Source: Aeromicrobium sp.
GTDB lineage: Bacteria > Actinomycetota > Actinomycetes > Propionibacteriales > Nocardioidaceae
Direction: 5' to 3'
Length of the DNA: 64,000 bases
Assembly (NCBI GenBank): GCA_045806885.1
Contig: JBJMIJ010000013.1
Location: 150,110-214,109 of the forward strand
The notes under the pieces were generated by a model. It saw only the letters and a list, made by a program, of their open reading frames with translations. It ran no database searches and had not been told where the DNA came from. Shown piece by piece: positions 24,190 to 36,942 of the stretch. The position numbers and the translations under genes were made by a program. Each line of letters begins with the position of its first letter. Within the stretch, counting starts at the first letter, position 1.

Positions 24190-24990
24190 CTAGGCGGCCA
24201 ACGCCTCGCGGAACCCGCGGAGGATGCGGGACTCCACCCGCGAGACCTGCATCTGGCTGATGCCGATGCGCTTGCCGACCTCGCTCTGCGTCATGCCGTT
24301 GAAGAACCGCAGGACGATGAGCTTGCGATCCCTCGGAGGCAGCTGGTCAAGCAGCGGCTCGATCAGGACCCGAGCCTCGGCTTGGTCGAAACCGGCGTCC
24401 TCGCCGCCCGTCCCATCTCCGACGGTGGCGGCGCGGCCGTCGTCACCCTTGGGCCGGTCGAGGCTCTCTGGCCGGTAGCAGTGATCGGCACCGCGGGCGT
24501 CGCTCACGGTATCCGGGTCGAGGCCCGTCTCGGCAGCCAGCTCGTCCACGGTGGGGTCACGCCCCAGCGCATTGCTCAGGTCGCTCTGGATCTCGTTGAT
24601 CGCCAAGCGGGCTTCCTGGATCCGGCGCGGCGGGCGCACCATCCAACCCATGTCGCGGAAGTAGCGCTTGAGCTCGCCCCGAATGCTCGGCACGGCGTAC
24701 GCGAGGAACGAATGCTCCCCCGCACCGTGGAACCGACGCATCGCCTGAACCAACGCCGTCCGCGCGACCTGGCGGAGGTCATCCATCGGAACGCCTCGTC
24801 CGCCGTAGTGCGCGGCCAGCCGGTCAGCGACCGGCAATGTGCGTTCGATGATCTGGTTGCACAACTGCTGCCGACGCTGGATCTCGTCGGCCGTGCGGCC
24901 AGAACAATCACCCAGCTGTTCGAGCAGGGTTGACGTGGAAACGTCCGACTCCGGGATGGTGTCGGACGGTGTTGCAAGGGTGCCGTTCAT
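24190..24990 (-). CDS. SigB/SigF-like group 3 sigma-70 factor
   Basis: Region 2 (SIRGELKRYFRD), region 3, and region 4.2 HTH (MTQSEVGKRIGISQMQVSRVESR). SD GAGGAG 6 nt upstream. Confidence 0.8.
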   Translation of the reverse strand: MNGTLATPSDTIPESDVSTSTLLEQLGDCSGRTADEIQRRQQLCNQIIERTLPVADRLAAHYGGRGVPMDDLRQVARTALVQAMRRFHGAGEHSFLAYAVPSIRGELKRYFRDMGWMVRPPRRIQEARLAINEIQSDLSNALGRDPTVDELAAETGLDPDTVSDARGADHCYRPESLDRPKGDDGRAATVGDGTGGEDAGFDQAEARVLIEPLLDQLPPRDRKLIVLRFFNGMTQSEVGKRIGISQMQVSRVESRILRGFREALAA

Positions 24991-25061
24991 GTCGGCTCCT
25001 CACAAGGAGGTACAGACCCCGCGCGGCCGACTGTGTGACCGCAGGTCTGACTCCAGACCTA

Positions 25062-25086
25062 CTACCCGAGGGGTTCAATTTCAAAC
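25062..25086 (-). promoter_or_regulatory. SigB/F-type promoter candidate GTTT-N15-GGGTAG upstream of the sigma gene
   Basis: Minus-strand -35 at 25086..25083 and -10 at 25067..25062, 71 nt upstream of the ATG. Confidence 0.55.
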
Positions 25087-25089
25087 TTT

Positions 25090-25416
25090 TCAGCGGCCCA
25101 CCGCCCGCTCCAGTTGAGCCTTGTTCATCCTGGAGCGTCCCTTGATTCCCTTCCGCTTCGCCTCGGCGTAAAGCTGATCGCGGGTCCGGCCGCCCTCGCC
25201 CTTGTGGGACCTCAGGCCGCCGCGCCGACCAGAGGAAATGTCCTCGGTCGAGGTCCGCGACGCCTCCTTCGCCTCGCCGTGGCGAGCCCGCTCCTTGTTG
25301 ACCGTCCGAGCCGCGATCTCCTCCGCCTCGTCTGCGCCGTGCCCGCGCTCGCGAAGCGACTCCTTGATGTGGTCGTACTGCCGTTCACGCTTGTCATTCC
25401 AGGCACCCTGCGGCAT
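25090..25416 (-). CDS. Rho_N (SAP-like) domain-containing small stress protein
   Basis: C-terminal RDQLYAEAKRKGIKGRSRMNKAQLERAV matches the Rho N-terminal-domain motif. ATG 25416 has GAGGGG 8 nt upstream. Confidence 0.65.
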   Translation of the reverse strand: MPQGAWNDKRERQYDHIKESLRERGHGADEAEEIAARTVNKERARHGEAKEASRTSTEDISSGRRGGLRSHKGEGGRTRDQLYAEAKRKGIKGRSRMNKAQLERAVGR

Positions 25417-25461
25417 GGCGATCACCCCTCATCTCGACGGATCGAACCTCCCGCGGCTCCC

Positions 25462-25486
25462 CTACCCACCCGCGGCGGAGGCATGC
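25462..25486 (-). promoter_or_regulatory. promoter candidate GCAT-N15-GGGTAG for 25090..25416
   Basis: Minus-strand -35 at 25486..25483 and -10 at 25467..25462, counted base by base. Confidence 0.5.
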
Positions 25487-25505
25487 CCGGTCGGCGAACG
25501 GGTAC
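25481..25505 (+). promoter_or_regulatory. promoter candidate GCAT-N15-GGGTAC for 25534..25731
   Basis: -35 at 25481..25484 and -10 at 25500..25505. Shares the GCATGC palindrome with the divergent promoter. Confidence 0.5.
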
Positions 25506-25533
25506 GCCTGATCGCGAAGGAAAGGACACCACA

Positions 25534-25731
25534 ATGGGAATTGGAACAGGCATCGTCCTGCTGCTTCTCGGACTGATCCTGCTGCTGGGCGTCGTCAACG
25601 TCGACCTGCCGTGGATCGACGACTACCAGCTCGGCCTCCTGCTGACGATCCTCGGGGCCGTTGCCCTCGTGCTCGTCATGGTGCTGGGGGCCCGCCGCCG
25701 GTCGACGGTGATCGAGCGCGACGTGACGTGA
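25534..25731 (+). CDS. small two-TM membrane protein (DUF6458-like)
   Basis: ATG 25534 with GAAGGAAAGGA upstream. MGIGTGIVLLLLGLILLLGVVNVDLPW... Confidence 0.6.
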   Translation: MGIGTGIVLLLLGLILLLGVVNVDLPWIDDYQLGLLLTILGAVALVLVMVLGARRRSTVIERDVT

Positions 25732-25755
25732 CGACCCGGCCGACCGCGGTCGGCC

Positions 25756-25781
25756 GCATGGCTCGGCGCCTGCATGGGTAG
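25756..25781 (+). promoter_or_regulatory. promoter candidate GCAT-N16-GGGTAG for the csbD-like gene
   Basis: -35 at 25756..25759 and -10 at 25776..25781. A second GGGTAA lies at 25796..25801. Confidence 0.45.
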
Positions 25782-25831: not shown

Positions 25832-26038
25832 ATGGGCGACTTTGAGAACAAGACTGACGAATGGCAGGGCGAGGTCAAGGAGACCGTCGGCGACGCAACC
25901 GACAACGAGGATCTCCAGGCCGAAGGCGCCGCCGAGAAGGTCAAGGCCAGGACCAAGCAGACGTTCGAGGACGCCAAGGACAACCTTGAGGACGCGACGG
26001 ACGCCGCGAAGGACAAGATCCGGAGCACGCTGGACTAA
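25832..26038 (+). CDS. CsbD family general stress protein
   Basis: 68 aa, KxxGxxKExxGxxTxN-type repeats (WQGEVKETVGDATDNEDLQAEG). SD AGGAGGA. Confidence 0.8.
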   Translation: MGDFENKTDEWQGEVKETVGDATDNEDLQAEGAAEKVKARTKQTFEDAKDNLEDATDAAKDKIRSTLD

Positions 26039-26208
26039 TGACCTCTGTTCTTGTGGGCGGGATCGCCCTGCTCGTGGTCGTCGCGGCTGCGTTCATGATC
26101 CTCTGGGTCGTGGACGCACGCCGCGCCGACCGCGTCGCGGCGGACCCCGAACGCGTACAGGGACACCCGCCCCGCCGGCGCTGGTGGGCGCACTCGCGGC
26201 AACGCTGA
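26038..26208 (+). CDS. hypothetical small single-TM protein (56 aa)
   Basis: Own translation: MTSVLVGGIALLVVVAAAFMILWVVDARRADRV... TAATG overlap with the csbD stop. Below the ORF-track size cutoff. Confidence 0.35.
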   Translation: MTSVLVGGIALLVVVAAAFMILWVVDARRADRVAADPERVQGHPPRRRWWAHSRQR

Positions 26209-26217
26209 GCGCCCGCC

Positions 26218-26736
26218 ATGCCCAGCAGCTATGACAAGCGGCTCAGCCGCAACTGGCACGAGCTCCTTCAAGAACTCCGCGTCACCCAGACCGGAACGCA
26301 GATCCTGACCGGTTTCCTCTTGACGCTGCCTTTTACGTCGCGCTTCGTCGAACTGGACGAGCGGCAAAAGCTCACCTTTCTGGTAACGATCGTGGGATCG
26401 GTCATCACGACGGGCCTCATCGTGGCGCCGGTTGCGTTTCACCGCGTCCTGTTCCACAAGCGGCAGCGGCCGTGGCTCGTCGCTGCGGCGGACATCACGG
26501 CCAAGATCGGCCTGTTCATGTTGGCACTGACCACGTCGGCGGTGATCCTGCTGGTCTTCGACGTGGTCCTCTCCTGGCGAGCCGCGCTCATGGCCGCGCC
26601 AACCACCTTCGTCGGGTTGATCGCGCTGTGGGGAGTCACGCCCTGGCTCGCCCGCCGCAACGGGCGGCTGGACGCCTACTCAACAGAGCCCGGCGCGGGG
26701 CCCTCAATCCGGAAGGCTTCGCCGCGACACCAGTAG
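26218..26736 (+). CDS. DUF6328-like integral membrane protein
   Basis: NWHELLQELRVTQTGTQILTGFLLTLPF N-terminus followed by TM helices. Confidence 0.6.
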   Translation: MPSSYDKRLSRNWHELLQELRVTQTGTQILTGFLLTLPFTSRFVELDERQKLTFLVTIVGSVITTGLIVAPVAFHRVLFHKRQRPWLVAAADITAKIGLFMLALTTSAVILLVFDVVLSWRAALMAAPTTFVGLIALWGVTPWLARRNGRLDAYSTEPGAGPSIRKASPRHQ

Positions 26737-27378
26737 CTGCGCGACATCGCGCAGCTTGAGGTTCTTGCCCTGCGAGTAGCGCAGCAGGACGGCGAAGGCC
26801 TGGTCGGCGTTCAGGTCGAAGCGCTCCATCAGGATGCCCTGCGCCTGACCCACGAGCTTGCGGGCGTCGATGGCCATCCAGAGGTTCTCGGCCCGGCGCG
26901 CTGAGACGAGTGCAGCCGCCGCGTGGCGCGCCAGGATCGAGGCGACCGCCTCGTCGTCTGCGTCGAAGGCGTCGGGCTCGGTGTGGAAGAGGTTCAGGGT
27001 GCCCAAGTCACCTTGCGTCGTCGACAGCTTCGCGACGAGAACGCTGCGGACGCCGTGGTCGGCCACCCGACGCGCCCATTCATCCCACCGTCGATCCAGC
27101 TTGGTGTCCGAGACACGCAGCGTCATTCGTTCGCTGAGGTCGAGGCCCGGACCTTCACCACACTCGATCTGGATGAGGTCGAGCTGCTCGACGAGTGGGT
27201 CGGTGGCGGCTGCTGTCTCTACCTTGTTTCCGTCATGGACGAGCATGACGCCGGCGTACTGGCAGTCGACTGCCTTGAGCGCGTAGTGAACGACGTAGTC
27301 GACCGTCTCGACGACGGTCGGCTCGTCGTGCAACCGAACGGCGAGGTCGGCGAAGTCCGACGCGGTCACCTCGAGCAC
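26704..27378 (-). CDS. GAF + ANTAR domain RNA-binding antitermination regulator
   Basis: GTG 27378 with GAGGAGG 5 nt upstream. C-terminal ANTAR motif IDARKLVGQAQGILMERFDLNADQAFAVLLRYSQGKNLKLRDVA. Confidence 0.75.
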   Translation of the reverse strand: MLEVTASDFADLAVRLHDEPTVVETVDYVVHYALKAVDCQYAGVMLVHDGNKVETAAATDPLVEQLDLIQIECGEGPGLDLSERMTLRVSDTKLDRRWDEWARRVADHGVRSVLVAKLSTTQGDLGTLNLFHTEPDAFDADDEAVASILARHAAAALVSARRAENLWMAIDARKLVGQAQGILMERFDLNADQAFAVLLRYSQGKNLKLRDVAQLLVSRRSLPD

Positions 27379-27410
27379 GGCGCCTCCTCTCGGCCGGCGG
27401 ATGCATCCGC

Positions 27411-27435
27411 GCATGACGCCTGACCAATGGGGTAT
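27411..27435 (+). promoter_or_regulatory. promoter candidate GCAT-N15-GGGTAT for 27478..27819
   Basis: -35 at 27411..27414 and -10 at 27430..27435. Confidence 0.45.
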
Positions 27436-27477: not shown

Positions 27478-27819
27478 ATGGCCATGTACCCCTCCGACGG
27501 CGGAACACTGACAGGGACTCCAGACAAGGTTTATAACATTCTTTGGTTCACCGAGGCCTGTCTCAGCAACGTTTTGCGCCTCGACCAGTACATCGCCGAT
27601 GCCTTCGATGCCAACGATCAGGAACTGGTCGAATTCTTTCGCAGAGCCCAGCGGGAAAGCCGCAGGGGCGCGGAGGAAGCCAAGCAGCTGCTGGCCGCGC
27701 GGATTACTCACGCGCCTAGTCACAACTGTGGCGACCACCGGGCGAATCCAGGCATCAGGTGCACCACATCGGAGATGTCCCGGACATCCGACCAGTCGAC
27801 CAGGAACGTGTCGCGCTGA
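27478..27819 (+). CDS. hypothetical protein (helical N-terminal ~75 aa; C-terminal tail doubtful)
   Basis: ATG 27478 with GAGAGGAAA upstream. The last ~33 codons overlap the convergent PRC-barrel gene. Confidence 0.4.
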   Translation: MAMYPSDGGTLTGTPDKVYNILWFTEACLSNVLRLDQYIADAFDANDQELVEFFRRAQRESRRGAEEAKQLLAARITHAPSHNCGDHRANPGIRCTTSEMSRTSDQSTRNVSR

Positions 27820-28043
27820 CGCCACGCGAAGTAGCGGTTCACCAGAGCAGGGCGGTCAGTCGACCGGCGCTCATAACCCAAGAACACTGGTCCGCGGCGG
27901 CGACCAACCACGAGGCCCAGGAGTTCTGGCCGGCCCGGCGCGTCGCCGTCCGTCTCGGCGACCACGAATCGGGCATCGACGACGCGGCCGACCTCCTCGT
28001 CCCCGGCCAGCACCCGCAACTCGAGCAACTCACTCAGGATCAT
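27720..28043 (-). CDS. PRC-barrel domain protein
   Basis: ATG 28043 with GGGAGGG upstream. MILSELLELRVLAGDEEVGRVVDARFVV resembles a PRC-barrel N-terminus. Confidence 0.55.
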   Translation of the reverse strand: MILSELLELRVLAGDEEVGRVVDARFVVAETDGDAPGRPELLGLVVGRRRGPVFLGYERRSTDRPALVNRYFAWRQRDTFLVDWSDVRDISDVVHLMPGFARWSPQL

Positions 28044-28416
28044 GGCGCCCTCCCGGGATGTGGCTGATGACGTGCTTGCGCAGCCAACGTTCACGCTCGG
28101 TTGTCTTGACGTCGTCGCGGGACACCGTCAGACGAAGCGCAGCCTCAATGGCGGCGATCGACCCCCACTGAACTCGCTCGGTCAAATCTGCGCGGCCCCG
28201 CCCACGCCGAAGGGGCGCAAGGACTCCTGAGCTGACGTCGAGGTGGGTGATCACCGGACGGCCTGCCCCGGCGAGGTCGATCTCGAGGTCGTCGACGATC
28301 CCGATCGGGACGTCGTTGCGGTCGGTCACCGTCCGGTTCAGCAGGTGGAGCGAAGCATCGAGCAGGCGATCCTGCGCGTCGGGCGGCCGATCAGGATGCT
28401 GCGGGAAGGTCTTCAC
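28030..28416 (-). CDS. PRC-barrel-like domain protein
   Basis: GTG 28416 forms a GTGA overlap with the Nramp stop. LLNRTVTDRNDVPIGIVDDLEIDL motif. Confidence 0.5.
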   Translation of the reverse strand: MKTFPQHPDRPPDAQDRLLDASLHLLNRTVTDRNDVPIGIVDDLEIDLAGAGRPVITHLDVSSGVLAPLRRGRGRADLTERVQWGSIAAIEAALRLTVSRDDVKTTERERWLRKHVISHIPGGRHDPE

Positions 28417-29639
28417 GATGACCCCATCCCGGTCAGGATCGTCAGCGGGATCGCCGCCACCGCGGCTACCACGATGAACACGAGAAGCACCATCGCGAGG
28501 CCGTTCATGACGTGCCCATTGACGCGCTCGCCGACGTACTGCGGATCGTTCGCCACGATGAGAACCGGCGCGTAGGTCAGTGGCAGCCCAACCGCGCTGA
28601 ACACGACCGAGACCTCCGTGACCTTGATCGGGTCGACGCCCGTCGCCAGGATCGCGACGGCCAGCGCGATCGACGCGAGCATCGTCACGTGGAACTGGGG
28701 TGCCGCGACCGGCCGCAGCCGCTTGCCCCACGGCCATCCGGCGTACTGGGCGAGACCGTAGCCGCAGGACAAGGCCGTCTCCAGGGCCGCGCCCGCGGTT
28801 GCGGCGAGGATGCCCAGGAGCACGATCGCCAGGCCCGCCGTCCCGAGCGCGATGCTCACGGGGTGCACGACATCGCCCATGGTTTCGACGGTTTTGCCGG
28901 CCGGCCGGAACACCAGTGCGGCACAACCCGCGATGCCGACCGAGAGCAATCCGCCGAGCGGGAAGCCGACGCCGGAGTTGAGCCGAGACAACATGAGGTC
29001 GCGCGGACCCCAATGCTCCTCGGCCGCGCCGGAGGAGAAGAAGAACACCTCGTAGGGCGTCATGGCCGCGCCGAAGAGCGCCACCACGAAGTACCAATAG
29101 GAGAGGCTGCCGAACGGGGCGTCCTGGGCGGTCACCTGACGCGCAACGGTCGACCATCCGGGCTCGAGCGCGACGAACGCCACCACAAAGACGATCAGCG
29201 TCAGTCCCAGCAGGCCGGCGACCGTCTCCATGATCGAGAACTTGACCGACCACAGCACGAGCCAGACAGCCGCGGCAGCGAGGCCGATCCAGACCGCTGG
29301 CGGGGCTCCGGTCATCAGCTGCAGCGCCAGCGCCATGCCGCCGATCTCGGCGGTGAGCGTCAAGAGGGTCATCAGCATCGTGGCCGCGAGGTTCGCGAAC
29401 GCCGCCCGCGCGCCAAGCCGCTCACGGATGACCTCGAACGTCGCGCGCCCGCTGAGGGCCATGACCTTCCCGGCCATGTGTGCATACAGCGTGATGGCGA
29501 CGACGCCCACGACGACGACCCACACCAGCGAGAGCCCGAACCGTGATCCGGCCACCGCGTTGGTGACCAAGTCACCGGCGTCCACAAAGCCACCGACGGC
29601 CGTCAGGATGCCGAGCGTCACGGCCAGGTAGCGCTTCAC
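28413..29639 (-). CDS. Nramp-family metal ion transporter, non-canonical binding-site variant
   Basis: 408 aa, about 11 TM. TM1 reads FVDAGDLV (canonical DPGN) and TM6 reads GAAMTPYEV (canonical AxxMPH). GTG start. Confidence 0.75.
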   Translation of the reverse strand: MKRYLAVTLGILTAVGGFVDAGDLVTNAVAGSRFGLSLVWVVVVGVVAITLYAHMAGKVMALSGRATFEVIRERLGARAAFANLAATMLMTLLTLTAEIGGMALALQLMTGAPPAVWIGLAAAAVWLVLWSVKFSIMETVAGLLGLTLIVFVVAFVALEPGWSTVARQVTAQDAPFGSLSYWYFVVALFGAAMTPYEVFFFSSGAAEEHWGPRDLMLSRLNSGVGFPLGGLLSVGIAGCAALVFRPAGKTVETMGDVVHPVSIALGTAGLAIVLLGILAATAGAALETALSCGYGLAQYAGWPWGKRLRPVAAPQFHVTMLASIALAVAILATGVDPIKVTEVSVVFSAVGLPLTYAPVLIVANDPQYVGERVNGHVMNGLAMVLLVFIVVAAVAAIPLTILTGMGSS

Positions 29640-29646: not shown

Positions 29647-29672
29647 GACTACCCATCGCGCCACGCGGGTAC
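29647..29672 (+). promoter_or_regulatory. promoter candidate GACT-N16-GGGTAC for the small ORF 29698..29856
   Basis: -35 at 29647..29650 and -10 at 29667..29672. Confidence 0.35.
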
Positions 29673-29674
29673 TC
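29649..29674 (-). promoter_or_regulatory. promoter candidate GAGT-N16-GGGTAG, 9 nt upstream of the Nramp GTG
   Basis: -10 at 29654..29649 and -35 at 29674..29671. Confidence 0.4.
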
Positions 29675-32033: not shown

Positions 32034-32784
32034 CACTCCGGTGAGGATCGCCGCCGTCGGCGACGTCCACATGGCGGACGACCTGCGCGGACGGTACTCG
32101 CCCGCGCTGGCGACCCTCCCCGAGCAGGCTGACGTCCTGCTCGTCGCCGGCGACCTCACTCAACACGGAACCTTGGCCGAAGGAGCCGCCTTCGCCGAGG
32201 AGTTCAGCCCGACCACCTGCGGGATCCCGGTGTTCGCCGTACTCGGAAATCACGACCACCACTCCGGCCTCGAGGCTGAGATCCGCGAGTTGATCGAGCG
32301 ATCCGGCATCACCGTCCTGGAAGGCGAGGGGCGTCACGTCGACACACCGGCCGGGCGCATCGGCATCGCCGGCGCCAAGGGTTTCTGCCTCGGGTTCACC
32401 GGACGCTGCGCCGCCAACTTCGGGGAGACCCAGATGAAGGCGTTCACCCAGCACGGCATCGACAGCGCCGGCCTGCTCCGTCGGGGGTTCGACGAACTCG
32501 ACGCCGACGAGCGCAAGCCGGACATCCTCATCGCCCTGACGCACTTTTCCCCCACGACGACGACTCTGCGCGGCGAGCCGGCGGAGATCTGGCCCTTCCT
32601 CGGCAACCACATGCTCGGCGAGGTCATCGATGACGCCAGGGCCCACTTCGCCGTCCACGGCCACGCGCACGGCGGCAGCGAACGCGGCCAGACCGAAGGC
32701 GGCGTGCCCGTCCGGAACGTCGCGCAGCCGGTGATCCGGAGCGCATTCCGCATCTACGAAGTCCCCGTGAAGGTGCCGGCATGA
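32020..32784 (+). CDS. metallophosphoesterase
   Basis: GDVH, GDLTQHG and GNHDHH motifs. ATG 32020 with GGAGG upstream. 14-nt overlap with the NTase gene. Confidence 0.8.
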   Translation: MPGRDTPVRIAAVGDVHMADDLRGRYSPALATLPEQADVLLVAGDLTQHGTLAEGAAFAEEFSPTTCGIPVFAVLGNHDHHSGLEAEIRELIERSGITVLEGEGRHVDTPAGRIGIAGAKGFCLGFTGRCAANFGETQMKAFTQHGIDSAGLLRRGFDELDADERKPDILIALTHFSPTTTTLRGEPAEIWPFLGNHMLGEVIDDARAHFAVHGHAHGGSERGQTEGGVPVRNVAQPVIRSAFRIYEVPVKVPA

Positions 32785-33035
32785 ACACGTCACACGCCAA
32801 TCAGCGGCTCGAACAGGCCATCGCGAACGACCTGCGGACCAACGAACTGGGCATCCGCGTGCAGGTCATCGACCATCGGGTCGTTCTACGCGGCGAAGTG
32901 GCCAGCGAGGAGCGCCGCGCGGCGGTGCTCACGGTCGCACAGGAGCACATGCCCGCGTCGCACATCATCGACGAAATCCGGCTCAGCGACGCGGCCGATC
33001 CACCCGACGGCACCGAACGCGTCGATCCGCTCTGA
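32781..33035 (+). CDS. BON domain protein
   Basis: 84 aa; LEQAIANDLRTNELGIRVQVIDHRVVLRGEVASEERRAAV. ATGA overlap. Confidence 0.7.
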   Translation: MNTSHANQRLEQAIANDLRTNELGIRVQVIDHRVVLRGEVASEERRAAVLTVAQEHMPASHIIDEIRLSDAADPPDGTERVDPL

Positions 33036-33055
33036 ACCACCGGGGCAGCGGAGAA

Positions 33056-33093
33056 CCTCCGGGGGCGGACGGGTGGTTGCCCGCCCCCGGAGG
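33056..33093. terminator. bidirectional stem-loop (13-bp perfect stem CCTCCGGGGGCGG / CCGCCCCCGGAGG, 12-nt loop)
   Basis: Lies between the convergent BON and hemerythrin genes. No U-tract. Confidence 0.55.
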
Positions 33094-33114
33094 TGGTCTC
33101 GTGCTCCGGTTCCG

Positions 33115-33693
33115 CTAGCTGGCGTTACGCAGCGCGTCGCGGGCGCGATCGATGATCGACGCAACGGGCAGGCTTGCAATTGTCGCGAGCGGATGTCCGG
33201 CGACGCTCGGATGCGGATGGGTCGGCGCGATGTTCTCGGTCGCCCGGAGGAGCTTGCCCATGCGCTGTCGCTCTTCGATCGTGTAATCGGCAACGATCGC
33301 CGGGAACTCCTCGACCTCCTCGGCCTCGGCGTGGTCGCTCACGGCCTTCTCGAAGTCGGCGAAACTGGCCGCGAAGGCCGGTGAGTCGACATCGAGGTGC
33401 TCCAACTCGGCCAAGGCCTTGGTGGCCTCGATCTCTTCCTCGGTCCTCGCCTTGGCGATCCGCTCGTTCACCTTCTCGGCGGTATTCGGCCGCAGCACGA
33501 TCTGCTCAGCGGTCTCATGGACTGCCAGCAGGGCGCGCAACTCGTTGAACCGGTCGCGCTTCTCATCGCTGGAGGCTCCACGCACCGCTTCGAAAAGCTC
33601 CTTGATGCGGGCGTGCTGCTCCAGCAGGATTCCCACGACGTCGCCCTCGGGCAGCATCGCAGCCGTCAGTCGATCCTGCAGTGGGTCACCCAT
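33115..33693 (-). CDS. hemerythrin domain protein
   Basis: ATG 33693 with AGGAGAGG upstream. HxxxE-type motifs (EQHARIKELF, VHETAEQ, DHAEAEE). Confidence 0.75.
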   Translation of the reverse strand: MGDPLQDRLTAAMLPEGDVVGILLEQHARIKELFEAVRGASSDEKRDRFNELRALLAVHETAEQIVLRPNTAEKVNERIAKARTEEEIEATKALAELEHLDVDSPAFAASFADFEKAVSDHAEAEEVEEFPAIVADYTIEERQRMGKLLRATENIAPTHPHPSVAGHPLATIASLPVASIIDRARDALRNAS

Positions 33694-33732: not shown

Positions 33733-33757
33733 ATACCCATGCGCCCGGGACTCATGC
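33733..33757 (-). promoter_or_regulatory. promoter candidate GCAT-N15-GGGTAT for the hemerythrin gene
   Basis: -35 at 33757..33754 and -10 at 33738..33733. Confidence 0.5.
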
Positions 33758-33786
33758 GCGGCCCAACGCATGGGTACGCATCCGCC

Positions 33787-33969
33787 GTGACCATTCCGGA
33801 AGACGACACCATCGAATTTCCCGAGCCGGCGCCTGCGACGCATCGGGCGTCGAAGCACGGGCTCAAGGCGTTCCTGGCCGCCGGTGCCGTGGCCTCCGCC
33901 GTCGCGTGCGGCGCGCGGTACCGCCGCAGGCGCGCCGCCGCAGGTCAGAGGGCGAATACGGACTCCTGA
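33787..33969 (+). CDS. hypothetical 60-aa protein with C-terminal hydrophobic segment (candidate leaderless)
   Basis: GTG 33787 lies 9 nt after GGGTAC (33772..33777), in frame with ORF 33397..33969. VTIPEDDTIEFPEP...LKAFLAAGAVASAVACGARYRRRR. Confidence 0.3.
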   Translation: MTIPEDDTIEFPEPAPATHRASKHGLKAFLAAGAVASAVACGARYRRRRAAAGQRANTDS

Positions 33970-33978
33970 CGTGGGTAA
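33954..33978 (+). promoter_or_regulatory. promoter candidate GAAT-N15-GGGTAA
   Basis: -35 at 33954..33957 and -10 at 33973..33978, upstream of the small ORF 34022..34183. Confidence 0.35.
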
Positions 33979-34021: not shown

Positions 34022-34183
34022 ATGCCCGACATCGTCAGATGCGTGGCCCTGTTGTGTGCACCGGCTATGGCCGTGGTGGCGCGCTTGGCCGATTCGCCCG
34101 ACGACCGGCGCGATCGCGCTCGGCGCCACCAGTTGACCCACCTGTGGGAGCAGTTTCAGGAAGACCATCCAGCCGCTCCATGA
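34022..34183 (+). CDS. hypothetical 53-aa protein
   Basis: Own translation: MPDIVRCVALLCAPAMAVVARLADSPDDRRDRARRHQLTHLWEQFQEDHPAAP. GGGAGG 9 nt upstream. Antisense to the 3' tail of the DUF72 gene. Confidence 0.25.
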   Translation: MPDIVRCVALLCAPAMAVVARLADSPDDRRDRARRHQLTHLWEQFQEDHPAAP

Positions 34184-34979
34184 GTCGGAGGGCGTCGCGT
34201 GGGGCATGACCGCGCGCATCGTTGTCGAAGTAGACGAAAACCGGGCCGCCGCGTGCCCACGTACGACACCGCTCGGCCCACTGGTCGAGTGATCGACTGC
34301 TGTAGCGACTCGCATAGAGCTCGCTGTGGCCGTGCAGTCGCACGTACGTGAAAGTCGCCGGACCGGGTTCGAACAAGGGCCATCGCGGGCTGTCCGACAC
34401 GACAAATGCCATGTCGCGGTCCGCCAGCAGGCCCCGGAACTCGGCGGTGTCGAAACTCGGGTTTCGCGGCTCCAGGGCGTGGCGTATCGGCAGGTTCTCT
34501 TCGTAGGCCACGTGCGCCCGGCCCTTGAGCTTGGCATCGTGCCGACTGCCAAGCGCGCTGGCGGCAGCCATCGACGTCGGCAGCAGGGCCAGGAAACGCC
34601 GGACGGTTTCTTCCTCGAACGTCATCGCCGCCGGGAGCTGCCAGAGGACCGGGCCCAGCTTGCGGCCCAACGCGAGCGGGCCGGACGCAAAGAAGTTCGC
34701 GAGACCCTGCTCCACGTCCCGGAGACGCCGAAGATGCGTGATGTAGCGGCCGCCCTTCAGCGCGAAGCAGAAGCCAGCAGGCGTCGCGTCGCGCCACCGT
34801 TCGTACGTGGACGGCCGCTGCAGCGAGTAGAACGACCCGTTGACCTCAATCGTCGGGAAATGCTGGGCGGCGAAGGGCAGACGCTCGCGCGCCGGGAGTC
34901 CGCGCGGATAGAAATCGCCCTGCCAGGCCGGGTAGTCCCAGCCGGACAACCCGATCCGAATCGCGTGCTCCTCGCGCAT
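34065..34979 (-). CDS. DUF72 family protein
   Basis: ATG 34979 (MREEHAIRIGLSGWDYPAWQGDFYP...), the typical DUF72 N-terminus. The ~40-aa Pro/Gly/Arg C-terminal tail is atypical. Confidence 0.75.
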   Translation of the reverse strand: MREEHAIRIGLSGWDYPAWQGDFYPRGLPARERLPFAAQHFPTIEVNGSFYSLQRPSTYERWRDATPAGFCFALKGGRYITHLRRLRDVEQGLANFFASGPLALGRKLGPVLWQLPAAMTFEEETVRRFLALLPTSMAAASALGSRHDAKLKGRAHVAYEENLPIRHALEPRNPSFDTAEFRGLLADRDMAFVVSDSPRWPLFEPGPATFTYVRLHGHSELYASRYSSRSLDQWAERCRTWARGGPVFVYFDNDARGHAPRDALRLMERLDGLPETAPTGGSTGGAERDRAGRRANRPSAPPRP

Positions 34980-34987: not shown

Positions 34988-34993
34988 CTACCC
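34988..34993 (-). promoter_or_regulatory. -10-like GGGTAG, 8 nt upstream of the DUF72 ATG
   Basis: Read on the minus strand. No convincing -35. Confidence 0.3.
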
Positions 34994-35027: not shown

Positions 35028-35052
35028 TCATGCCTCAGCGTCGATCGGGTAC
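35028..35052 (+). promoter_or_regulatory. promoter candidate TCAT-N15-GGGTAC for the SRPBCC gene
   Basis: -10 at 35047..35052. Confidence 0.4.
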
Positions 35053-35079
35053 CGAAGCCACCCAAGGAAAGGAGCAACG

Positions 35080-35568
35080 ATGAGTGTCATCGAGAAGTCC
35101 ATTGAGGTTGACGTCCCGCGACGCACGGCCTACGACCAGTGGACGCAGTTCGAGAGCTTCCCCGAGTTCATGGAGGGGGTTGAGGACGTCCGCCAGATCG
35201 ACGACAGCCATCTCCACTGGAAGGGCGAGATCGCTGGGGTGGAACGCGAGTGGGATGCCGAGATCGTGCACCAGGAGCCGGATGAACGCGTGACCTGGCG
35301 TGCCACGAGCGGCGCCAAGAACGACGGCACCGTGTCCTTCGGATCGATCAACCCCGAGCGGACGCAAGTGACGTTGCGGCTCGACTTCGAGCCGGAAGGC
35401 TTCGCCGAGAAGGCCGCCGACGTCCTGCACATCGTCGACCTGCGGGTCGACAAGGACCTCCACAACTTCAAGAGGTTCATCGAGGAGCGGGAGACGGAGA
35501 CCGGCGCGTGGCGCGGGTCGGTGAAGCCGACCGGTGAGGTCGACTCAGGGCCCGAACAGACGCCCTAA
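35080..35568 (+). CDS. SRPBCC family (cyclase/dehydrase-like) protein
   Basis: ATG 35080 with AAGGAAAGGAG upstream. SIEVDVPRRTAYDQWTQFESFPEFMEGV. Confidence 0.75.
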   Translation: MSVIEKSIEVDVPRRTAYDQWTQFESFPEFMEGVEDVRQIDDSHLHWKGEIAGVEREWDAEIVHQEPDERVTWRATSGAKNDGTVSFGSINPERTQVTLRLDFEPEGFAEKAADVLHIVDLRVDKDLHNFKRFIEERETETGAWRGSVKPTGEVDSGPEQTP

Positions 35569-35596
35569 CCGGCAGTCTCGCTGAGCCGGCCGAGCG

Positions 35597-35902
35597 TCAC
35601 GCGCCGGCCGGCTCAGAGCCTGGTTGACGACGGGATTCGGTCACCACGGTCAAGACGACTGGCCGCCGAAGCCCGTCGGGCGCGAGCCGGTGGCTTCCGT
35701 CGCACCATGGCTTCCTTCGGCTGAAGCCGCAGTTGCACACGGCGACCAGCGGGCGCTCAACGTCGACCGAATCACCCTCCGGACCGCGCAGCGCCGACGC
35801 GAACCGGACAAGTGCCGGACCGTCAGGCACGCATTCGATCTCGATCGGTCGATCCGCAAGGACCTCGTACCGACGCACGCGCTGCTTGTCACCTGATGCC
35901 AC
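35597..35902 (-). CDS. CDGSH iron-sulfur domain protein
   Basis: CNCGFSRRKPWCDGSH matches the CxCx2(S/T)x3PxCDG(S/A/T)H signature. GTG 35902 lies 9 nt after GGGTAC. Confidence 0.75.
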   Translation of the reverse strand: MASGDKQRVRRYEVLADRPIEIECVPDGPALVRFASALRGPEGDSVDVERPLVAVCNCGFSRRKPWCDGSHRLAPDGLRRPVVLTVVTESRRQPGSEPAGA

Positions 35903-35911
35903 ACCGTCGCC

Positions 35912-35937
35912 GTACCCAGACACCTGCCACAGCAGTC
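35912..35937 (-). promoter_or_regulatory. promoter candidate GACT-N16-GGGTAC for the CDGSH gene
   Basis: -10 at 35917..35912 and -35 at 35937..35934. Confidence 0.4.
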
Positions 35938-35942
35938 GCTCC

Positions 35943-35967
35943 GAATCGCACCGGCACCACCGGGTAA
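35943..35967 (+). promoter_or_regulatory. promoter candidate GAAT-N15-GGGTAA for the haem-oxygenase-like gene
   Basis: -35 at 35943..35946 and -10 at 35962..35967. GTG 35977 lies 9 nt downstream. Confidence 0.4.
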
Positions 35968-35976
35968 TTGGAGGGT

Positions 35977-36942
35977 GTGCGCCTGCCCGCCCCACGTGGC
36001 CCCTACAGCGAAGAGCTCTTCGACAGCTTGGCGAATCGCACCCGGCTCTTCGCCCCGCCGGACGAACTCGCCGACGACGACCGGCACATCGCCCTGTGGG
36101 CCCTGTACGAGCTGCACTATCGCGGATTCGCCGGCGTCGACGAGGACCGGGAATGGGACCCCGTGCTGCTGCGGGCGCGCGCAGGCTTGGAGGCACCCTT
36201 CGAGGCGGACCTGCGCGCCCGGTCCGCAGAGGTGGTCAAGCGCACGCTGTCGGAGGGCAGCGGCGTCGTCGAGCAGCTGGGCATCATCGCCACGCGTCGT
36301 GGCTCGGGATTGCCCACATTCCTGGAGCGCAGTGCGACCGAGGCGCAGTTCGCCGAGTTCCTGACCATGCGCAGCGTCTACACGCTCAAGGAGTCCGATC
36401 CGCACGCGTGGGCACTGCCGAGGATCACCCATCATGCGAAGGCGGCCCTCGCCGAGCTCCTGTACGACGAGTTCGGCAGCGGCTCGGGCAACCGCGTACA
36501 CCAGGAGCTGTTCGCCGCCGCTCTTCGCGAAGCGGGCCTAGACCCCATCTACGGCGCGCTGGTCGACCAGGCTCCAGCACACGTTCTCGCCGTCAACAAC
36601 GCGATGAGCCTGTTCGGCCTGCATCACCGCCTGCGTGGCGCCCTGCTCGGCCACCTCGCCGCATTCGAGATGACGAGCACGACACCGTGCCGACGGATCG
36701 CGAAGGGGGCTCAGCGACTCGGTCTCGGCCCTGCCGTCCTGAGGTACTACGAGGAGCACATCGAGGCCGACGCCGTCCACGAGCAGCTCGCGTCCCGCTC
36801 GATCTGCGGCGCGTTGGTCGACGCCGAACCCGCCCTGCACGATGACGTGCTCCTCGGCGCAGCCACCTGCGTCGTGCTGGAGAAGACGTCGGGCATCGCG
36901 ATGCTGAAGGCGTGGGCTGACGGTCGGTCAGCCCTGCGCTGA
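35977..36942 (+). CDS. iron-containing redox enzyme family (haem-oxygenase-like diiron oxidase fold) protein
   Basis: All-helical, about 320 aa. DDDRHIALWALYELHYRGF and EEHIEADAVHEQ resemble this family. The start could also be TTG 35968. Confidence 0.55.
   Translation: MRLPAPRGPYSEELFDSLANRTRLFAPPDELADDDRHIALWALYELHYRGFAGVDEDREWDPVLLRARAGLEAPFEADLRARSAEVVKRTLSEGSGVVEQLGIIATRRGSGLPTFLERSATEAQFAEFLTMRSVYTLKESDPHAWALPRITHHAKAALAELLYDEFGSGSGNRVHQELFAAALREAGLDPIYGALVDQAPAHVLAVNNAMSLFGLHHRLRGALLGHLAAFEMTSTTPCRRIAKGAQRLGLGPAVLRYYEEHIEADAVHEQLASRSICGALVDAEPALHDDVLLGAATCVVLEKTSGIAMLKAWADGRSALR

What the first reader, a model, noticed from the sequence alone, without database searches (positions are those of the whole stretch)
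24190..36942. 12-kb general-stress island defined by 16 GNNT-N15/16-GGGTA promoter-like elements next to a SigB/SigF-like sigma factor
Sites, counted base by base:
- GTTT-N15-GGGTAG, 25086..25062 (the sigma gene)
- GCAT-N15-GGGTAG, 25486..25462 (Rho_N protein)
- GCAT-N15-GGGTAC, 25481..25505 (DUF6458)
- GCAT-N16-GGGTAG, 25756..25781 (CsbD)
- GCAT-N15-GGGTAT, 27411..27435
- GAGT-N16-GGGTAG, 29674..29649 (Nramp)
- GACT-N16-GGGTAC, 29647..29672
- GCAT-N15-GGGTAG, 31417..31393 (FAD-Rieske)
- GGTTT-N16-GGGTAC, 31427..31453 (NTase operon)
- GCAT-N15-GGGTAT, 33757..33733 (hemerythrin)
- GAAT-N15-GGGTAA, 33954..33978
- TCAT-N15-GGGTAC, 35028..35052 (SRPBCC)
- GACT-N16-GGGTAC, 35937..35912 (CDGSH)
- GAAT-N15-GGGTAA, 35943..35967 (HO-like diiron)
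- -10-only sites at 33772..33777 and 34993..34988
This is the architecture of Bacillus SigB, Mycobacterium SigF and Streptomyces SigB-family promoters. The cargo is classic general-stress content: CsbD, BON, hemerythrin, PRC-barrel, SRPBCC and small membrane proteins. GGGTA alone is expected roughly once per kb per strand at this GC. The signal is therefore its position relative to start codons and the coupled -35, not the pentamer count.
Basis: partly seen in the sequence, partly recalled or inferred. Interest (0 to 1): 0.75.

Follow-up and report, generated by a model that had tools for sequence, protein, structure and literature searches.

The report
SigB-type stress regulon gene cluster
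An 11-kb run of about 25 small stress, iron and redox genes in an Aeromicrobium-like actinobacterium carries 16 matching promoter signatures of the SigB/SigF alternative sigma-factor type, next to the gene for such a sigma factor; this is a real and tidy example of a kind of regulon already known from mycobacteria and Streptomyces.

Summary
All 16 sites exist as written. The composite motif is far above chance: CATG-N14/15-GGGTA occurs 8 times against 0.25 expected. GGGTA occurs 17 times in 2 kb of cluster non-coding DNA against 3 in 8.5 kb elsewhere. It is the top dyad in an unbiased search of the window's non-coding DNA, and every site points at a gene start. In related Nocardioidaceae loci the -35 and -10 blocks are kept while spacers diverge. 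Seven sites lie 8-10 nt before a conserved ATG/GTG (leaderless mRNAs); the others lie 25-71 nt upstream. The neighbouring gene is a group-3 SigB/F/G-type sigma.

This is a SigB/SigF-type regulon cluster, the counterpart of the SigF-dependent cluster beside M. smegmatis sigF.

Corrections:
- The real -35 is (G/T)CATG at 8 sites, not a generic GNNT.
- One "-10-only" site has a TCATG -35 and drives an uncalled leaderless 60-aa gene.
- The sigma gene's own site is the least secure.
- PRC-barrel is not confirmed.
- No anti-sigma, STAS or PP2C gene lies in the 64 kb.
- It is not a mobile island.

The sigma mRNA also has a conserved, covarying structured leader that masks its ribosome-binding site, with no Rfam match. 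Sigma dependence and stress induction remain untested.

The parts
24190..24990 (-). Group-3 sigma factor gene (266 aa), SigB/SigF/SigG type; region 4.2 recognition helix is ISQMQVSR
   Evidence: Pfam regions 2, 3 and 4. TIGR02980 scores 229.5 bits against a cut-off of 234.35. PDB 8x6g_H 1e-34 and 1l0o_C 2e-28. Helix comparison.
24991..25059 (-). Structured 5' leader of the sigma mRNA. It has a 13-bp interrupted stem with an invariant 8-nt loop ACAYAGYC, then a hairpin pairing the Shine-Dalgarno GGAG with an upstream CUCC
   Evidence: In 11 loci, 90.9% of cells are paired, 9 of 19 pairs show compensatory change, and 0 of 500 shuffles reach the observed value. The covariance model finds it in two held-out loci, ending exactly at the sigma start codon. 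No Rfam match.
25062..25086 (-). Site 1: GTTT-N15-GGGTAG, 71 nt before the sigma ATG. This is the least secure site
   Evidence: GGGTA is kept in L006, L008 and L135 but is GGGGAG or CGGGAG in L009, L001 and L002. An overlapping TTGNNN-N17-TAGRNN arrangement is kept in 9 loci.
25090..25416 (-). 108-aa hydrophilic protein with a weak Rho_N-like C-terminus, always directly upstream of the sigma gene
   Evidence: Pfam Rho_N scores 16.5 bits, below the cut-off. 83-91% identical and syntenic in 5 loci. No terminator-like site before the sigma gene.
25462..25486 (-). Promoter GCATG-N14-GGGTAG for the 108-aa gene (45-nt leader). It shares the palindromic GCATGC -35 (25481-25486) with the next promoter
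   Evidence: The footprint is conserved in 5 loci.
25481..25505 (+). Promoter GCATG-N14-GGGTAC for the DUF6458-like gene (28-nt leader)
25534..25731 (+). 65-aa membrane protein, weak DUF6458 match
   Evidence: 21.3 bits, cut-off 27
25756..25781 (+). Promoter GCATG-N15-GGGTAG for the CsbD operon (50-nt leader)
25832..26736 (+). Operon of CsbD (25832-26038), a 56-aa membrane protein (26038-26208) and DUF6328 (26218-26736)
   Evidence: Pfam; ortholog tblastn
26704..27378 (-). GAF-ANTAR regulator. It is the only transcription unit of the cluster without a GGGTA promoter, and it is conserved in all related clusters
   Evidence: Pfam. The upstream region has no GGGTA. Synteny.
27411..27435 (+). Promoter GCATG-N14-GGGTAT for the conserved 80-aa gene (42-nt leader)
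27478..27819 (+). Conserved small protein. It is 78-80 aa in relatives, but here it reads on to 113 aa past the junction with the Nramp block
   Evidence: no Pfam family
27720..29639 (-). Nramp transporter (28413-29639) followed by two unassigned ORFs (28030-28410 and 27720-28094). This block is absent from relatives
   Evidence: Pfam Nramp 156.9 bits. No Pfam hit for the two ORFs, so the PRC-barrel label is not confirmed. L006 keeps only about 30 Nramp codons.
29649..29674 (-). Promoter with -10 GGGTAG 9 nt before the Nramp GTG (leaderless). It overlaps the next promoter completely
   Evidence: the pair is conserved in L006
29647..29672 (+). Promoter with -10 GGGTAC, 25-nt leader, for the 52-aa gene 29698-29856
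29994..31382 (-). FAD oxidoreductase (DAO) with a C-terminal Rieske domain
   Evidence: Pfam; the start is fixed by orthologs
31393..31417 (-). Promoter GCATG-N14-GGGTAG, 10 nt before the ATG (leaderless)
   Evidence: The -10 to ATG distance is 9-10 nt in 5 loci.
31427..31453 (+). Promoter GGTTT-N16-GGGTAC, 10 nt before the GTG (leaderless)
31464..33035 (+). Operon of NTP_transf_5 nucleotidyltransferase, Metallophos phosphoesterase and a BON-domain protein
   Evidence: Pfam; orthologs
33039..33110 (.). 30-nt inverted repeat with a 12-nt loop between the convergent BON and hemerythrin genes; a likely two-way terminator
   Evidence: I23; function is inferred
33115..33693 (-). Hemerythrin-domain protein (192 aa)
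   Evidence: Pfam; orthologs
33733..33757 (-). Promoter GCATG-N14-GGGTAT for hemerythrin (39-nt leader). Its CATG core (33753-33756) is shared with the next promoter
33752..33777 (+). Promoter TCATG-N15-GGGTAC.
   Evidence: TCATG-N14-GGGTAC is present in L006 and L008.
33787..33969 (+). Uncalled leaderless gene for a 60-aa protein with one hydrophobic segment; its GTG lies 9 nt after the -10
   Evidence: (third-position GC). The start codon is 9 nt after the -10 in L006 and L008 as well. No Pfam family.
33954..33978 (+). Promoter GAATA-N14-GGGTAA for the 53-aa gene 34022-34183 (43-nt leader)
34065..34979 (-). DUF72 protein
   Evidence: Pfam 224.6 bits; orthologs
34988..34993 (-). -10 GGGTAG 8 nt before the DUF72 ATG (leaderless), with no recognisable -35
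35028..35052 (+). Promoter TCATG-N14-GGGTAC for the SRPBCC gene 35080-35568 (27-nt leader)
   Evidence: TCATG and CGGGTACCG are kept in all 5 loci.
35597..35902 (-). CDGSH iron-sulfur protein (101 aa)
   Evidence: Pfam; start placed
35912..35937 (-). Promoter GACTG-N15-GGGTAC, 9 nt before the GTG (leaderless)
35943..35967 (+). Promoter GAATC-N14-GGGTAA, 9 nt before the GTG at 35977 (leaderless)
35977..36942 (+). Haem-oxygenase-like diiron enzyme (Haem_oxygenas_2)
   Evidence: Pfam 178.7 bits

Best explanation
The stretch 24190-36942 is a chromosomal regulon cluster of an Aeromicrobium-like (Nocardioidaceae) bacterium.

RNA polymerase carrying a group-3 SigB/SigF-type sigma factor binds 16 bipartite promoters. 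The factor is most likely the one encoded at 24190-24990, possibly together with close paralogs. Region 4.2 reads a -35 element G(C/T/A)(A/T)TG, most often (G/T)CATG. Region 2.4 reads a -10 element GGGTA(G/C/T/A) placed 14 (sometimes 15) nt further on. This is the hexamer spacing of 13-14 nt seen for B. subtilis SigB.

Transcription starts about 8-10 nt after the -10 hexamer. At seven promoters that position is the ATG/GTG itself, giving leaderless mRNAs: Nramp, DAO-Rieske, the NTase operon, the 60-aa gene, DUF72, CDGSH and the HO-like gene. At nine promoters there is a 25-71 nt leader with a Shine-Dalgarno sequence. Twelve promoters form six compact divergent pairs. In two pairs one palindromic CATG serves as the -35 for both directions. 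In one pair the two promoters overlap completely, so they must compete.

The cargo is small hydrophilic or membrane proteins and iron, oxygen and redox proteins: CsbD, BON, DUF6328, SRPBCC, hemerythrin, CDGSH, a diiron HO-like enzyme, a Rieske flavoprotein and Nramp. The cluster would therefore switch on together when the sigma becomes active, by analogy under stationary-phase, osmotic, oxidative or low-oxygen stress.

The sigma is probably fed by read-through from the CATG-type promoter of the upstream 108-aa gene, which would be positive feedback, and by a promoter in the 99-nt gap. Its translation is probably gated by a conserved structured leader that pairs the ribosome-binding site.

Shown by sequence: the motif, its enrichment, position, conservation and spacing; the protein families; and the leader's covariation. 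Inferred: which sigma reads the sites, the start sites, the inducing signals, the feedback and the leader's role.
For: - Sites and statistics.
- Orientation and distance to start codons.
- The cluster, with the same gene families, lies beside the orthologous sigma (62-87% identity) in L002, L006, L008, L009, L012, L133 and L135. CATG-N14/15-GGGTA is 20-130-fold enriched in most of these: 4-8 observed against 0.05-0.15 expected in six loci. L012 carries mostly GTTT-type sites instead.
- Phylogenetic footprint: ortholog pair identity is 0.61-0.75 at -20..-14 and 0.67-0.76 at +5..+8 of the -10, against 0.33-0.46 in the spacer.
- The -10-to-start distance of 9-10 nt is conserved while the intervening bases change.
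- No sigma-70-type promoter was found in 13.5 kb.
- Sigma family assignment.
- Literature match: SigB GTTTAA-N12-14-GGG(A/T)A(A/T); Streptomyces SigB homologues with a near-invariant GGG.A -10 and a loose GNNT -35, including GCATAA-N14-GGGTAT (PMC8346170).
- M. smegmatis SigF uses GTTT-N14-19-GGGTA. It has a dense dependent cluster, MSMEG_1758-1790, beside rsbW-sigF, with consensus-to-start distances of 8-11 or 27-69 (PMC4694148).
- GGGTA is the -10 at mapped, hypoxia-induced start sites. About 24% of mycobacterial mRNAs are leaderless, and ATG or GTG is sufficient for them (PMC6448022).
- Sigma leader.
Against: - There are no transcript or binding data, so start sites and sigma dependence are inferred.
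- The same genomes hold paralogous SigB-like sigmas with the same recognition helix (P0087 in the L002 genome). Their neighbourhoods also carry CATG-N14-GGGTA (L011: 3 against 0.08; L134: 3 against 0.11). The cognate factor is therefore not uniquely identified.
- The sigma gene's own site is not conserved as GGGTA in three relatives.
- L012 has the same helix but mostly GTTT-type -35 elements.
- TIGR02980 is missed by 5 bits, and the SigF and SigB equivalog models are far below cut-off.
- No anti-sigma kinase, STAS or PP2C gene was found in 64 kb, so the activating signal path is unknown.
- 'General stress' rests on domain names and analogy only.
Confidence: 0.8

Rival explanations
1. The promoters are real SigB/F-type promoters, but another SigB-like paralog encoded elsewhere reads them mainly or jointly. 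The adjacent sigma gene would be one more target, giving a sigma cascade or cross-recognition as in Streptomyces.
For: - A paralog with 53% identity lies on the same 2.68-Mb contig as the ortholog.
- All 120 closest homologs share the S/TQMQ(V/I)SR helix.
- CATG-N14-GGGTA also occurs near paralogs (L011, L134).
- The nine S. coelicolor SigB homologues cross-recognise promoters, and a SigB-to-SigL hierarchy is described (PMC8346170).
- The sigma gene's own site has a different -35 (GTTT) from most of the cluster.
Against: - The cluster and this sigma ortholog stay linked in at least 7 genomes despite gene gain and loss.
- The 108-aa gene just upstream has a CATG-type promoter, and no terminator-like site precedes the sigma gene.
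- This rival overlaps with the main explanation rather than excluding it.
Confidence: 0.25
2. GGGTA is the sigma's -10, but the CATG/GCATGC element is the operator of a separate DNA-binding regulator that happens to sit where a -35 would be.
For: CATG is palindromic, and at 25481-25486 it forms GCATGC between divergent genes. This is the usual look of a dimeric regulator site.
Against: - The distance to GGGTA is fixed at 14-15 nt at every CATG-type site in the window and across the related loci.
- Most copies are not extended palindromes.
- Sites with GTTT, GAAT or GACT at the same position share G at position 1 and T at position 4, as in SigB-family -35 elements.
- Sporulation sigma-F, which has the same Gln-containing helix, uses a GCAT/GYAT-type -35 (own knowledge; a GTTTA example is in PMC5829568).
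Confidence: 0.06
3. The pattern is a chance or compositional by-product of AT-richer intergenic DNA, or copies of a dispersed repeat.
For: GGGTA alone is only mildly over-represented in the whole window: 42 against 31, with 3 of 100 shuffles reaching 42.
Against: - The density in cluster non-coding DNA is 24 times that in other non-coding DNA of the same window.
- The composite pattern was never reached in shuffles.
- It is the top dyad of an unbiased search.
- The sites are conserved in orthologous positions with diverged spacers.
- No repeat family covers the sites.
Confidence: 0.01

Closest known systems
SigF regulon of Mycobacterium smegmatis, especially the SigF-dependent cluster MSMEG_1758-1790 next to chaB-rsbW-sigF (PMC4694148; PMC6448022)
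   Same: - A group-3 sigma with a GGGTA -10.
- G..T in the -35 with 15-16 nt between the tetramer and GGGTA.
- Tens of small 'conserved hypothetical' and redox genes packed beside the sigma gene, each unit with its own promoter.
- Consensus-to-start distances fall in two classes, 8-11 nt (leaderless) and about 27-69 nt.
- A small hydrophilic protein gene sits just upstream of the sigma operon.
- Relatives of the cluster (L133) even carry a type IB topoisomerase, as MSMEG_1784 does.
   Different: - The -35 here is mostly (G/T)CATG rather than GTTT.
- There is no rsbW anti-sigma gene beside the sigma, and no STAS antagonist in 64 kb.
- The recognition helix has Gln where M. tuberculosis SigF has His.
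- The sigma gene has a structured leader.
- Nothing here is tested experimentally.
SigB and its eight homologues in Streptomyces coelicolor (PMC8346170)
   Same: - Actinobacterial SigB-like sigmas with a near-invariant GGG.A -10 and a loose GNNT -35 for the osmotic-stress group.
- One mapped promoter is GCATAA-N14-GGGTAT.
- There are several paralogs per genome with overlapping promoter recognition.
   Different: - Streptomyces targets are scattered rather than concentrated beside the sigma gene.
- All nine homologues are reported to share the B. subtilis SigB recognition residues, whereas this clade differs at one helix position.
- The Streptomyces factors are controlled by many RsbW, RsbV and PP2C homologues.
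General stress regulon of Bacillus subtilis SigB
   Same: - Consensus GTTTAA-N12-14-GGG(A/T)A(A/T).
- CsbD is a founding SigB-controlled gene (own knowledge).
- The nearest solved structure is a sigma-B-type factor (8x6g_H).
   Different: - The organism is a firmicute, and the sigB operon encodes its own partner-switching regulators.
- The -35 is GTTTAA.
- The target genes are dispersed.
Forespore sigma-F/sigma-G of Bacillus and Geobacillus
   Same: - Same TIGR02980 family.
- The region 4.2 helix carries Gln at the position where SigB and mycobacterial SigF have His (1l0o_C ISQVQMSR against this protein's ISQMQVSR).
- The sigma-F -35 is of GCAT/GYAT type (own knowledge, not verified in the held library).
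   Different: - The -10 is different (GG..A.A.T type).
- It belongs to the sporulation programme and is controlled by SpoIIAB/SpoIIAA.
- A GTTTA -35 is also used by sigma-F (PMC5829568), so the link between Gln and CATG is only suggestive.

Membership tests
SigB/SigF/SigG family of group-3 sigma-70 factors | Sigma-70 regions 2, 3 and 4 present, with no long N-terminal region 1 | tested here: met
   Pfam Sigma70_r2, r3 and r4 within a 266-aa protein
SigB/SigF/SigG family of group-3 sigma-70 factors | Score above the curated cut-off of TIGR02980 (SigBFG) | tested here: inconclusive
   229.5 bits against a cut-off of 234.35. It is the best-scoring family by far, but the equivalog models for SigB, spore SigF and SigG fall far below their cut-offs.
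SigB/SigF/SigG family of group-3 sigma-70 factors | Closest solved relatives are SigB- or SigF-type factors | tested here: met
   8x6g_H 1e-34, 1l0o_C 1.8e-28, and SigF region 4 (8jzt_A) 1.5e-17
SigB/SigF/SigG family of group-3 sigma-70 factors | Control by an RsbW/SpoIIAB-type anti-sigma kinase with a STAS antagonist, usually encoded nearby | tested here: not met
   No HATPase_c_2, STAS or SpoIIE domain was found in about 70 ORFs covering the 64-kb window. Relatives at 53-62% identity do have them nearby (L134, L137). Such genes could lie elsewhere in this genome.
SigB/SigF-type promoter | -10 element GGGTA (GGG[A/T]A) | tested here: met
   16 of 16 sites. T at position 4 is invariant in the cluster sites of all loci, though those sites were selected for GGGTA.
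SigB/SigF-type promoter | -35 element GTTT/GNNT, 14-16 nt upstream of GGGTA | tested here: met
   Of the 16 sites, 2 are GTTT, 6 GCATG, 2 TCATG, 2 GAAT and 1 GACTG. Another 2 match only as the complement of an overlapping -10, and 1 has none. Strict GTTT is met at only 2 sites.
SigB/SigF-type promoter | Located upstream of, and oriented toward, a gene, at a distance compatible with a start site | tested here: met
   16 of 16 sites; distances are 8-10 nt (7 sites) or 25-71 nt (9 sites)
SigB/SigF-type promoter | Mapped transcription start 6-10 nt downstream of the -10 | not testable with these tools
   No RNA data. Indirect support comes from start codons at a conserved 9-10 nt in orthologs.
SigB/SigF-type promoter | Transcription depends on the sigma factor | not testable with these tools
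   Needs a mutant, overexpression or in vitro transcription
Horizontally acquired genomic island | Deviant composition, mobility genes, a tRNA or repeat border, and patchy presence | tested here: not met
   - GC is 0.66-0.68, like the flanks.
- There is no integrase or transposase.
- The only tRNA is at 59057.
- The same cluster lies between the same flanking genes in relatives.
- Only the Nramp block varies.
ANTAR-target RNA (for the sigma leader, given the GAF-ANTAR gene in the cluster) | Two stem-loops 2-25 nt apart, each with a hexanucleotide loop carrying A at position 1 and G at position 4 | tested here: not met
   Two stem-loops 3 nt apart are present, and the second holds the ribosome-binding site. 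However, loop 1 is an invariant 8-mer ACAYAGYC and loop 2 is 2-9 nt (criteria from PMC8164766). The leader also occurs in loci without a nearby GAF-ANTAR gene (L134, L136).

The most novel reading that the evidence does not exclude
This Nocardioidaceae clade of SigB-like sigmas has Gln instead of His in the region 4.2 recognition helix. It may have its own -35 specificity centred on the palindrome CATG, which would let one -35 serve two divergent promoters.

Its output may be set not by the classical partner-switching module but by a previously undescribed structured leader RNA on the sigma mRNA. That leader masks the ribosome-binding site and carries an invariant 8-nt loop for a still unknown ligand, protein or RNA.
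Probability: 0.2. Interest if true: 0.55.

Novelty: new member of a known kind. Interest (0 to 1): 0.35.

Why it matters
The cluster is an unusually clean, self-contained picture of an alternative-sigma regulon in a poorly studied actinobacterial family. Sixteen promoters lie in 11 kb, with a defined consensus, (G/T)CATG-N14-GGGTA(G/C), and a clear split into leaderless and leadered genes.

What it offers:
- A ready matrix for annotating stress regulons and small uncalled genes in Nocardioidaceae genomes and metagenome bins.
- A natural series of promoter variants for testing how region 4.2 reads the -35.
- A set of co-regulated iron, oxygen and redox proteins of unknown function whose shared control hints at a common physiological role.

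The conserved sigma leader is a candidate new cis-regulatory RNA. None of this overturns current understanding, because the principle is already established in Mycobacterium, Streptomyces and Bacillus.

Tried and rejected
- Metagenome scan with the leader core CGGTCACANAGTCGGC.
- Dyad enumeration on the whole window. It was dominated by codon-periodic patterns of coding DNA, so it was repeated on non-coding DNA only.
- Rfam at gathering and at permissive thresholds. It found only a tRNA and one sub-threshold sRNA hit, and nothing for the leader or any ANTAR target.
- Literature searches for 'GCATR', for GGGTA in Nocardioidaceae, for GCATG+GGGTA and for a SigB-RNAP structure paper. No relevant paper was found, and Humpel 2010 is not held.
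- Sigma-70-type promoter scan of the cluster. It found 0 sites, and the terminator-like sites were no more frequent than in shuffles.
- PRC-barrel label for 27720-28410. No Pfam hit even at E<=1.
- The second GGGTA upstream of csbD (25796) and the palindrome GCGGATGCATCCGC (27397-27410) are not conserved in orthologs, so both were set aside.
- GGGTA at 27491(-) and 34930(+) lies in coding sequence. The first encodes the conserved Tyr-Pro of the 80-aa protein in all loci, so these are not promoters.
- The site at 54188 (GGATG-N15-GGGTA) is inside a coding region and scores below threshold with the matrix.
- A strict rule of His for GTTT and Gln for CATG. It is supported by L004 (His, with GTTTGC-type neighbours) but weakened by L012 (Gln, mostly GTTT) and by a GTTTA sigma-F promoter.
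- Repeat searches found nothing linking the sites.

Full report
**Observation.** Every one of the 16 strings is present at the stated position and strand.
- GCATG-N14-GGGTA occurs 5 times against 0.07 expected from dinucleotide shuffles.
- GNNT-N15-GGGTA occurs 8 times against 1.8, and GNNT-N16-GGGTA 7 times against 1.7. 14 of these 15 lie between 25.0 and 36.0 kb.
- CATG-N14/15-GGGTA occurs 8 times against 0.25.
- Plain GGGTA is only mildly enriched in the window as a whole, 42 against 31.
- The distribution is extreme. 17 copies lie in 2,018 bp of non-coding DNA inside the cluster, 3 in 8,454 bp of non-coding DNA elsewhere, and 22 in 53.5 kb of coding DNA.

- GGGTA and GCATG are the commonest 5-mers in the 16 upstream regions.
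- CATG-N15-GGTA is the top-ranked of about 0.9 million dyads in all non-coding DNA of the window.
- A weight matrix built only from other genomes hits 8 claimed sites and nothing else in 64 kb.

**Genes.** The window is about 67% G+C throughout. I placed genes by third-position GC, Pfam and NCBIfam, and tblastn of the genes called in related loci.
- The sigma (24190-24990, minus strand) has regions 2, 3 and 4. It scores 229.5 bits on TIGR02980 SigBFG against a cut-off of 234.35. Its nearest solved structures are a sigma-B-type factor and Geobacillus sigma-F.
- Its closest named homologs are from Aeromicrobium, family Nocardioidaceae.
- The cluster holds a 108-aa hydrophilic protein, a DUF6458-like protein, CsbD with a 56-aa protein and DUF6328, GAF-ANTAR, and a conserved 80-aa protein.
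- It also holds Nramp plus two unassigned ORFs, a 52-aa protein, a DAO-Rieske flavoprotein, and an NTP_transf_5-Metallophos-BON operon.
- The remaining genes are hemerythrin, two small proteins, DUF72, SRPBCC, CDGSH and a Haem_oxygenas_2 enzyme.
PRC-barrel was not confirmed, and the Rho_N and DUF6458 hits are sub-threshold.

**Position of the sites.** Each of the 16 -10 elements points at a gene start.
- Seven lie 8-10 nt before an ATG or GTG: Nramp 9, DAO-Rieske 10, NTase 10, DUF72 8, CDGSH 9, HO-like 9, and a new 60-aa ORF 9.
- The other nine lie 25-71 nt upstream, and a Shine-Dalgarno sequence is visible in several leaders.
It is followed after 9 nt by a GTG opening a 60-aa ORF with high third-position GC and one hydrophobic segment, at 33787-33969.
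- Twelve promoters form six divergent pairs in gaps of 58-117 nt. At 25481-25486 and 33753-33756 one palindromic CATG is the -35 core of both partners. At 29647-29674 the two promoters overlap completely, and there the apparent -35 matches are simply each other's -10 on the opposite strand.
- Only the GAF-ANTAR gene has no such promoter.
- No sigma-70-type promoter is found in the 13.5 kb.

**Comparative evidence.** The same cluster, with gene gain and loss, lies next to the orthologous sigma in L006 (87% identity), L008 (85%), L009/L003 and L135 (75%), L002 (76%), L012 (64%) and L133 (63%).
- CATG-N14/15-GGGTA is enriched 20-130-fold in most of them. L012 has mainly GTTT-type sites.
- Alignments of orthologous intergenic regions show the classical footprint. 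The -35 and -10 blocks are kept and the spacers diverge.
- Anchored on GGGTA, ortholog pair identity is 0.61-0.75 at -20..-14 and 0.67-0.76 just after the pentamer, against 0.33-0.46 in the spacer.
- At the leaderless genes the start codon stays 9-10 nt from the -10 while the bases between them change.

**Mechanism.** The best explanation is a regulon cluster transcribed by RNA polymerase carrying a SigB/SigF-type sigma.
- The -35 is G(C/T/A)(A/T)TG, the spacing is 14-15 nt, the -10 is GGGTAN, and transcription starts about 8-10 nt further on.
- The adjacent sigma is the obvious candidate because the linkage is conserved. However, paralogs with the same recognition helix exist in the same genomes, and their neighbourhoods carry the same motif. 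Joint or hierarchical use cannot be excluded.
- The sigma gene probably receives read-through from the CATG-type promoter of the 108-aa gene, since no terminator-like site lies between them.
- Its own site (GTTT-N15-GGGTAG) is the weakest of the 16. In L009, L001 and L002 the pentamer is GGGGA or CGGGA, while an overlapping TTGNNN-N17-TAGRNN arrangement is kept in nine loci.
- No anti-sigma kinase, STAS or PP2C gene is present in the 64 kb. Relatives at 53-62% identity do have them.

**Region 4.2.** This protein and all 120 closest homologs read S/TQMQ(V/I)SR in the recognition helix. M. tuberculosis SigF (8jzt_A) and the sigma-B-type chain 8x6g_H read SQMHVSR, and Geobacillus sigma-F reads SQVQMSR.
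- A Phytomonospora relative with His has GTTTGC-N15-GGGTA neighbours.
- This suggests that Gln goes with CATG-type -35 elements.
- L012 (Gln, mostly GTTT) and a GTTTA sigma-F promoter weaken the rule. I treat it as a hypothesis only.

**Known relatives.** The consensus fits the following:
- B. subtilis SigB: GTTTAA-N12-14-GGG(A/T)A(A/T).
- The S. coelicolor SigB homologues: GGG.A nearly invariant in the -10, a -35 of GTTT or only GNNT, and one promoter GCATAA-N14-GGGTAT (PMC8346170).
- M. smegmatis SigF: GTTT-N14-19-GGGTA (PMC4694148), with GGGTA as the -10 at mapped, hypoxia-induced start sites (PMC6448022).

The closest precedent for the architecture is the SigF-dependent cluster MSMEG_1758-1790 beside rsbW-sigF. 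Its consensus-to-start distances fall in the same two classes, 8-11 and 27-69. The finding is therefore a new member of a known kind. It has a variant -35, it lacks a linked partner-switching module, and it is not a mobile island.

**Side finding.** The 69 nt between the sigma gene's -10 and its ATG fold into a conserved structure. A 13-bp interrupted stem is capped by an invariant loop ACAYAGYC, followed after 3 nt by a hairpin pairing CUCC with the Shine-Dalgarno GGAG.
- In 11 loci, including paralogs, 90.9% of cells pair and 9 of 19 pairs show compensatory change. No shuffle reaches this, and slid controls pair at 33-47%.
- A covariance model finds the element nowhere else in the window. 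It does find it in two held-out paralog loci, ending exactly at the sigma start codon (4e-9 and 7e-11).
- Rfam has no match, and the ANTAR-target criteria are not met.
- The single-sequence fold of the window copy prefers an alternative 5' hairpin, so competing structures are possible. The function is unknown. Translational gating of sigma synthesis is my inference.

**Limits.** There are no expression data. The complete genome was not available, so I cannot say whether the regulon extends beyond the cluster or where the sigma's regulators are. 'General stress' rests on domain content and analogy.

Noticed in passing
window 24991-25059 (minus strand): The 5' leader of the sigma mRNA is a conserved structure with covariation. 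It has an invariant 8-nt loop ACAYAGYC and a hairpin that pairs the Shine-Dalgarno sequence. A covariance model finds it in two held-out paralog loci, ending exactly at the sigma start codon. There is no Rfam family and it is not ANTAR-type, so it is a candidate new cis-regulatory RNA.
   Followed up: partly
window 25040-25090 (minus strand); L009, L001, L002, L011, L012 upstream of sigma: The GGGTA of the sigma gene's own site is replaced by GGGGA or CGGGA in three relatives. An overlapping TTGNNN-N17-TAG(A/G)NN arrangement is kept in nine loci, including a paralog with a perfect TTGACA. A second kind of promoter may therefore drive the sigma gene.
   Followed up: partly
window 33787-33969 (+): An uncalled leaderless ORF of 60 aa with one hydrophobic segment starts 9 nt after a TCATG-N15-GGGTAC promoter. 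Start codons lie at the same distance in L006 and L008.
   Followed up: yes
window 27715-29650; L006 7050-7136: The block of Nramp plus two ORFs is present only in the window. L006 keeps the promoter pair and the first ~30 Nramp codons (90% identical), so relatives lost the block by deletion. In the window the neighbouring 80-aa gene has lost its usual stop codon and reads on to 113 aa.
   Followed up: partly
window 26704-27378 (-): The GAF-ANTAR RNA-binding regulator is the only gene of the cluster without a GGGTA promoter. It is paired divergently with the 80-aa gene in every related cluster. Its RNA target was not found.
   Followed up: partly
window 33039-33110: A 30-nt inverted repeat with a 12-nt loop lies between the convergent BON and hemerythrin genes. 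It is probably a two-way terminator without a T-run.
   Followed up: no
window 24136-24189 (minus strand): A 7-bp GC hairpin, CGCCGGC...GCCGGCG, lies in the 54-nt gap between the sigma stop codon and the Old-Yellow-Enzyme-type flavin oxidoreductase gene (23047-24135). That gene follows the sigma in all orthologous loci and may or may not be co-transcribed.
   Followed up: no
L011 8794-9051, L136 6797-7078, L137 6794-7075; L134 10800-13164: Paralogous sigmas (53% identity) are followed by an overlapping 85-93-aa ORF with no Pfam family, a possible dedicated partner. A 62% relative is followed by STAS, HATPase_c_2 and GAF-SpoIIE genes, a classical partner-switching module absent from the window.
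   Followed up: no
window 39253-42625 (-): A bacterial animal-haem-peroxidase-family protein (302 bits) lies next to a cytochrome P450, just beyond an ArsR-MIP-LMWPc arsenic-type operon. This is an unusual pairing and was not examined further.
   Followed up: no
window 3644-4603 (-) and 7089-8099 (+): Two AurF-type diiron N-oxygenase paralogs lie in inverted orientation (71-78% complementary over 65-140 nt). They flank a ferredoxin-reductase-like gene and a TetR gene.
   Followed up: no
window 48979-49524 (+): A separate ECF-type sigma factor gene lies 24 kb from the cluster, followed by unassigned ORFs that could include its anti-sigma.
   Followed up: no
L004 6090-8300 (Phytomonospora endophytica): A distant SigB-like sigma (42% identity, His-type helix) also has a local group of GTTTGC-N15-GGGTA sites: 4 observed against 0.01 expected. 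Clustering of targets beside SigB-like sigma genes may therefore be common in Actinomycetota.
   Followed up: partly
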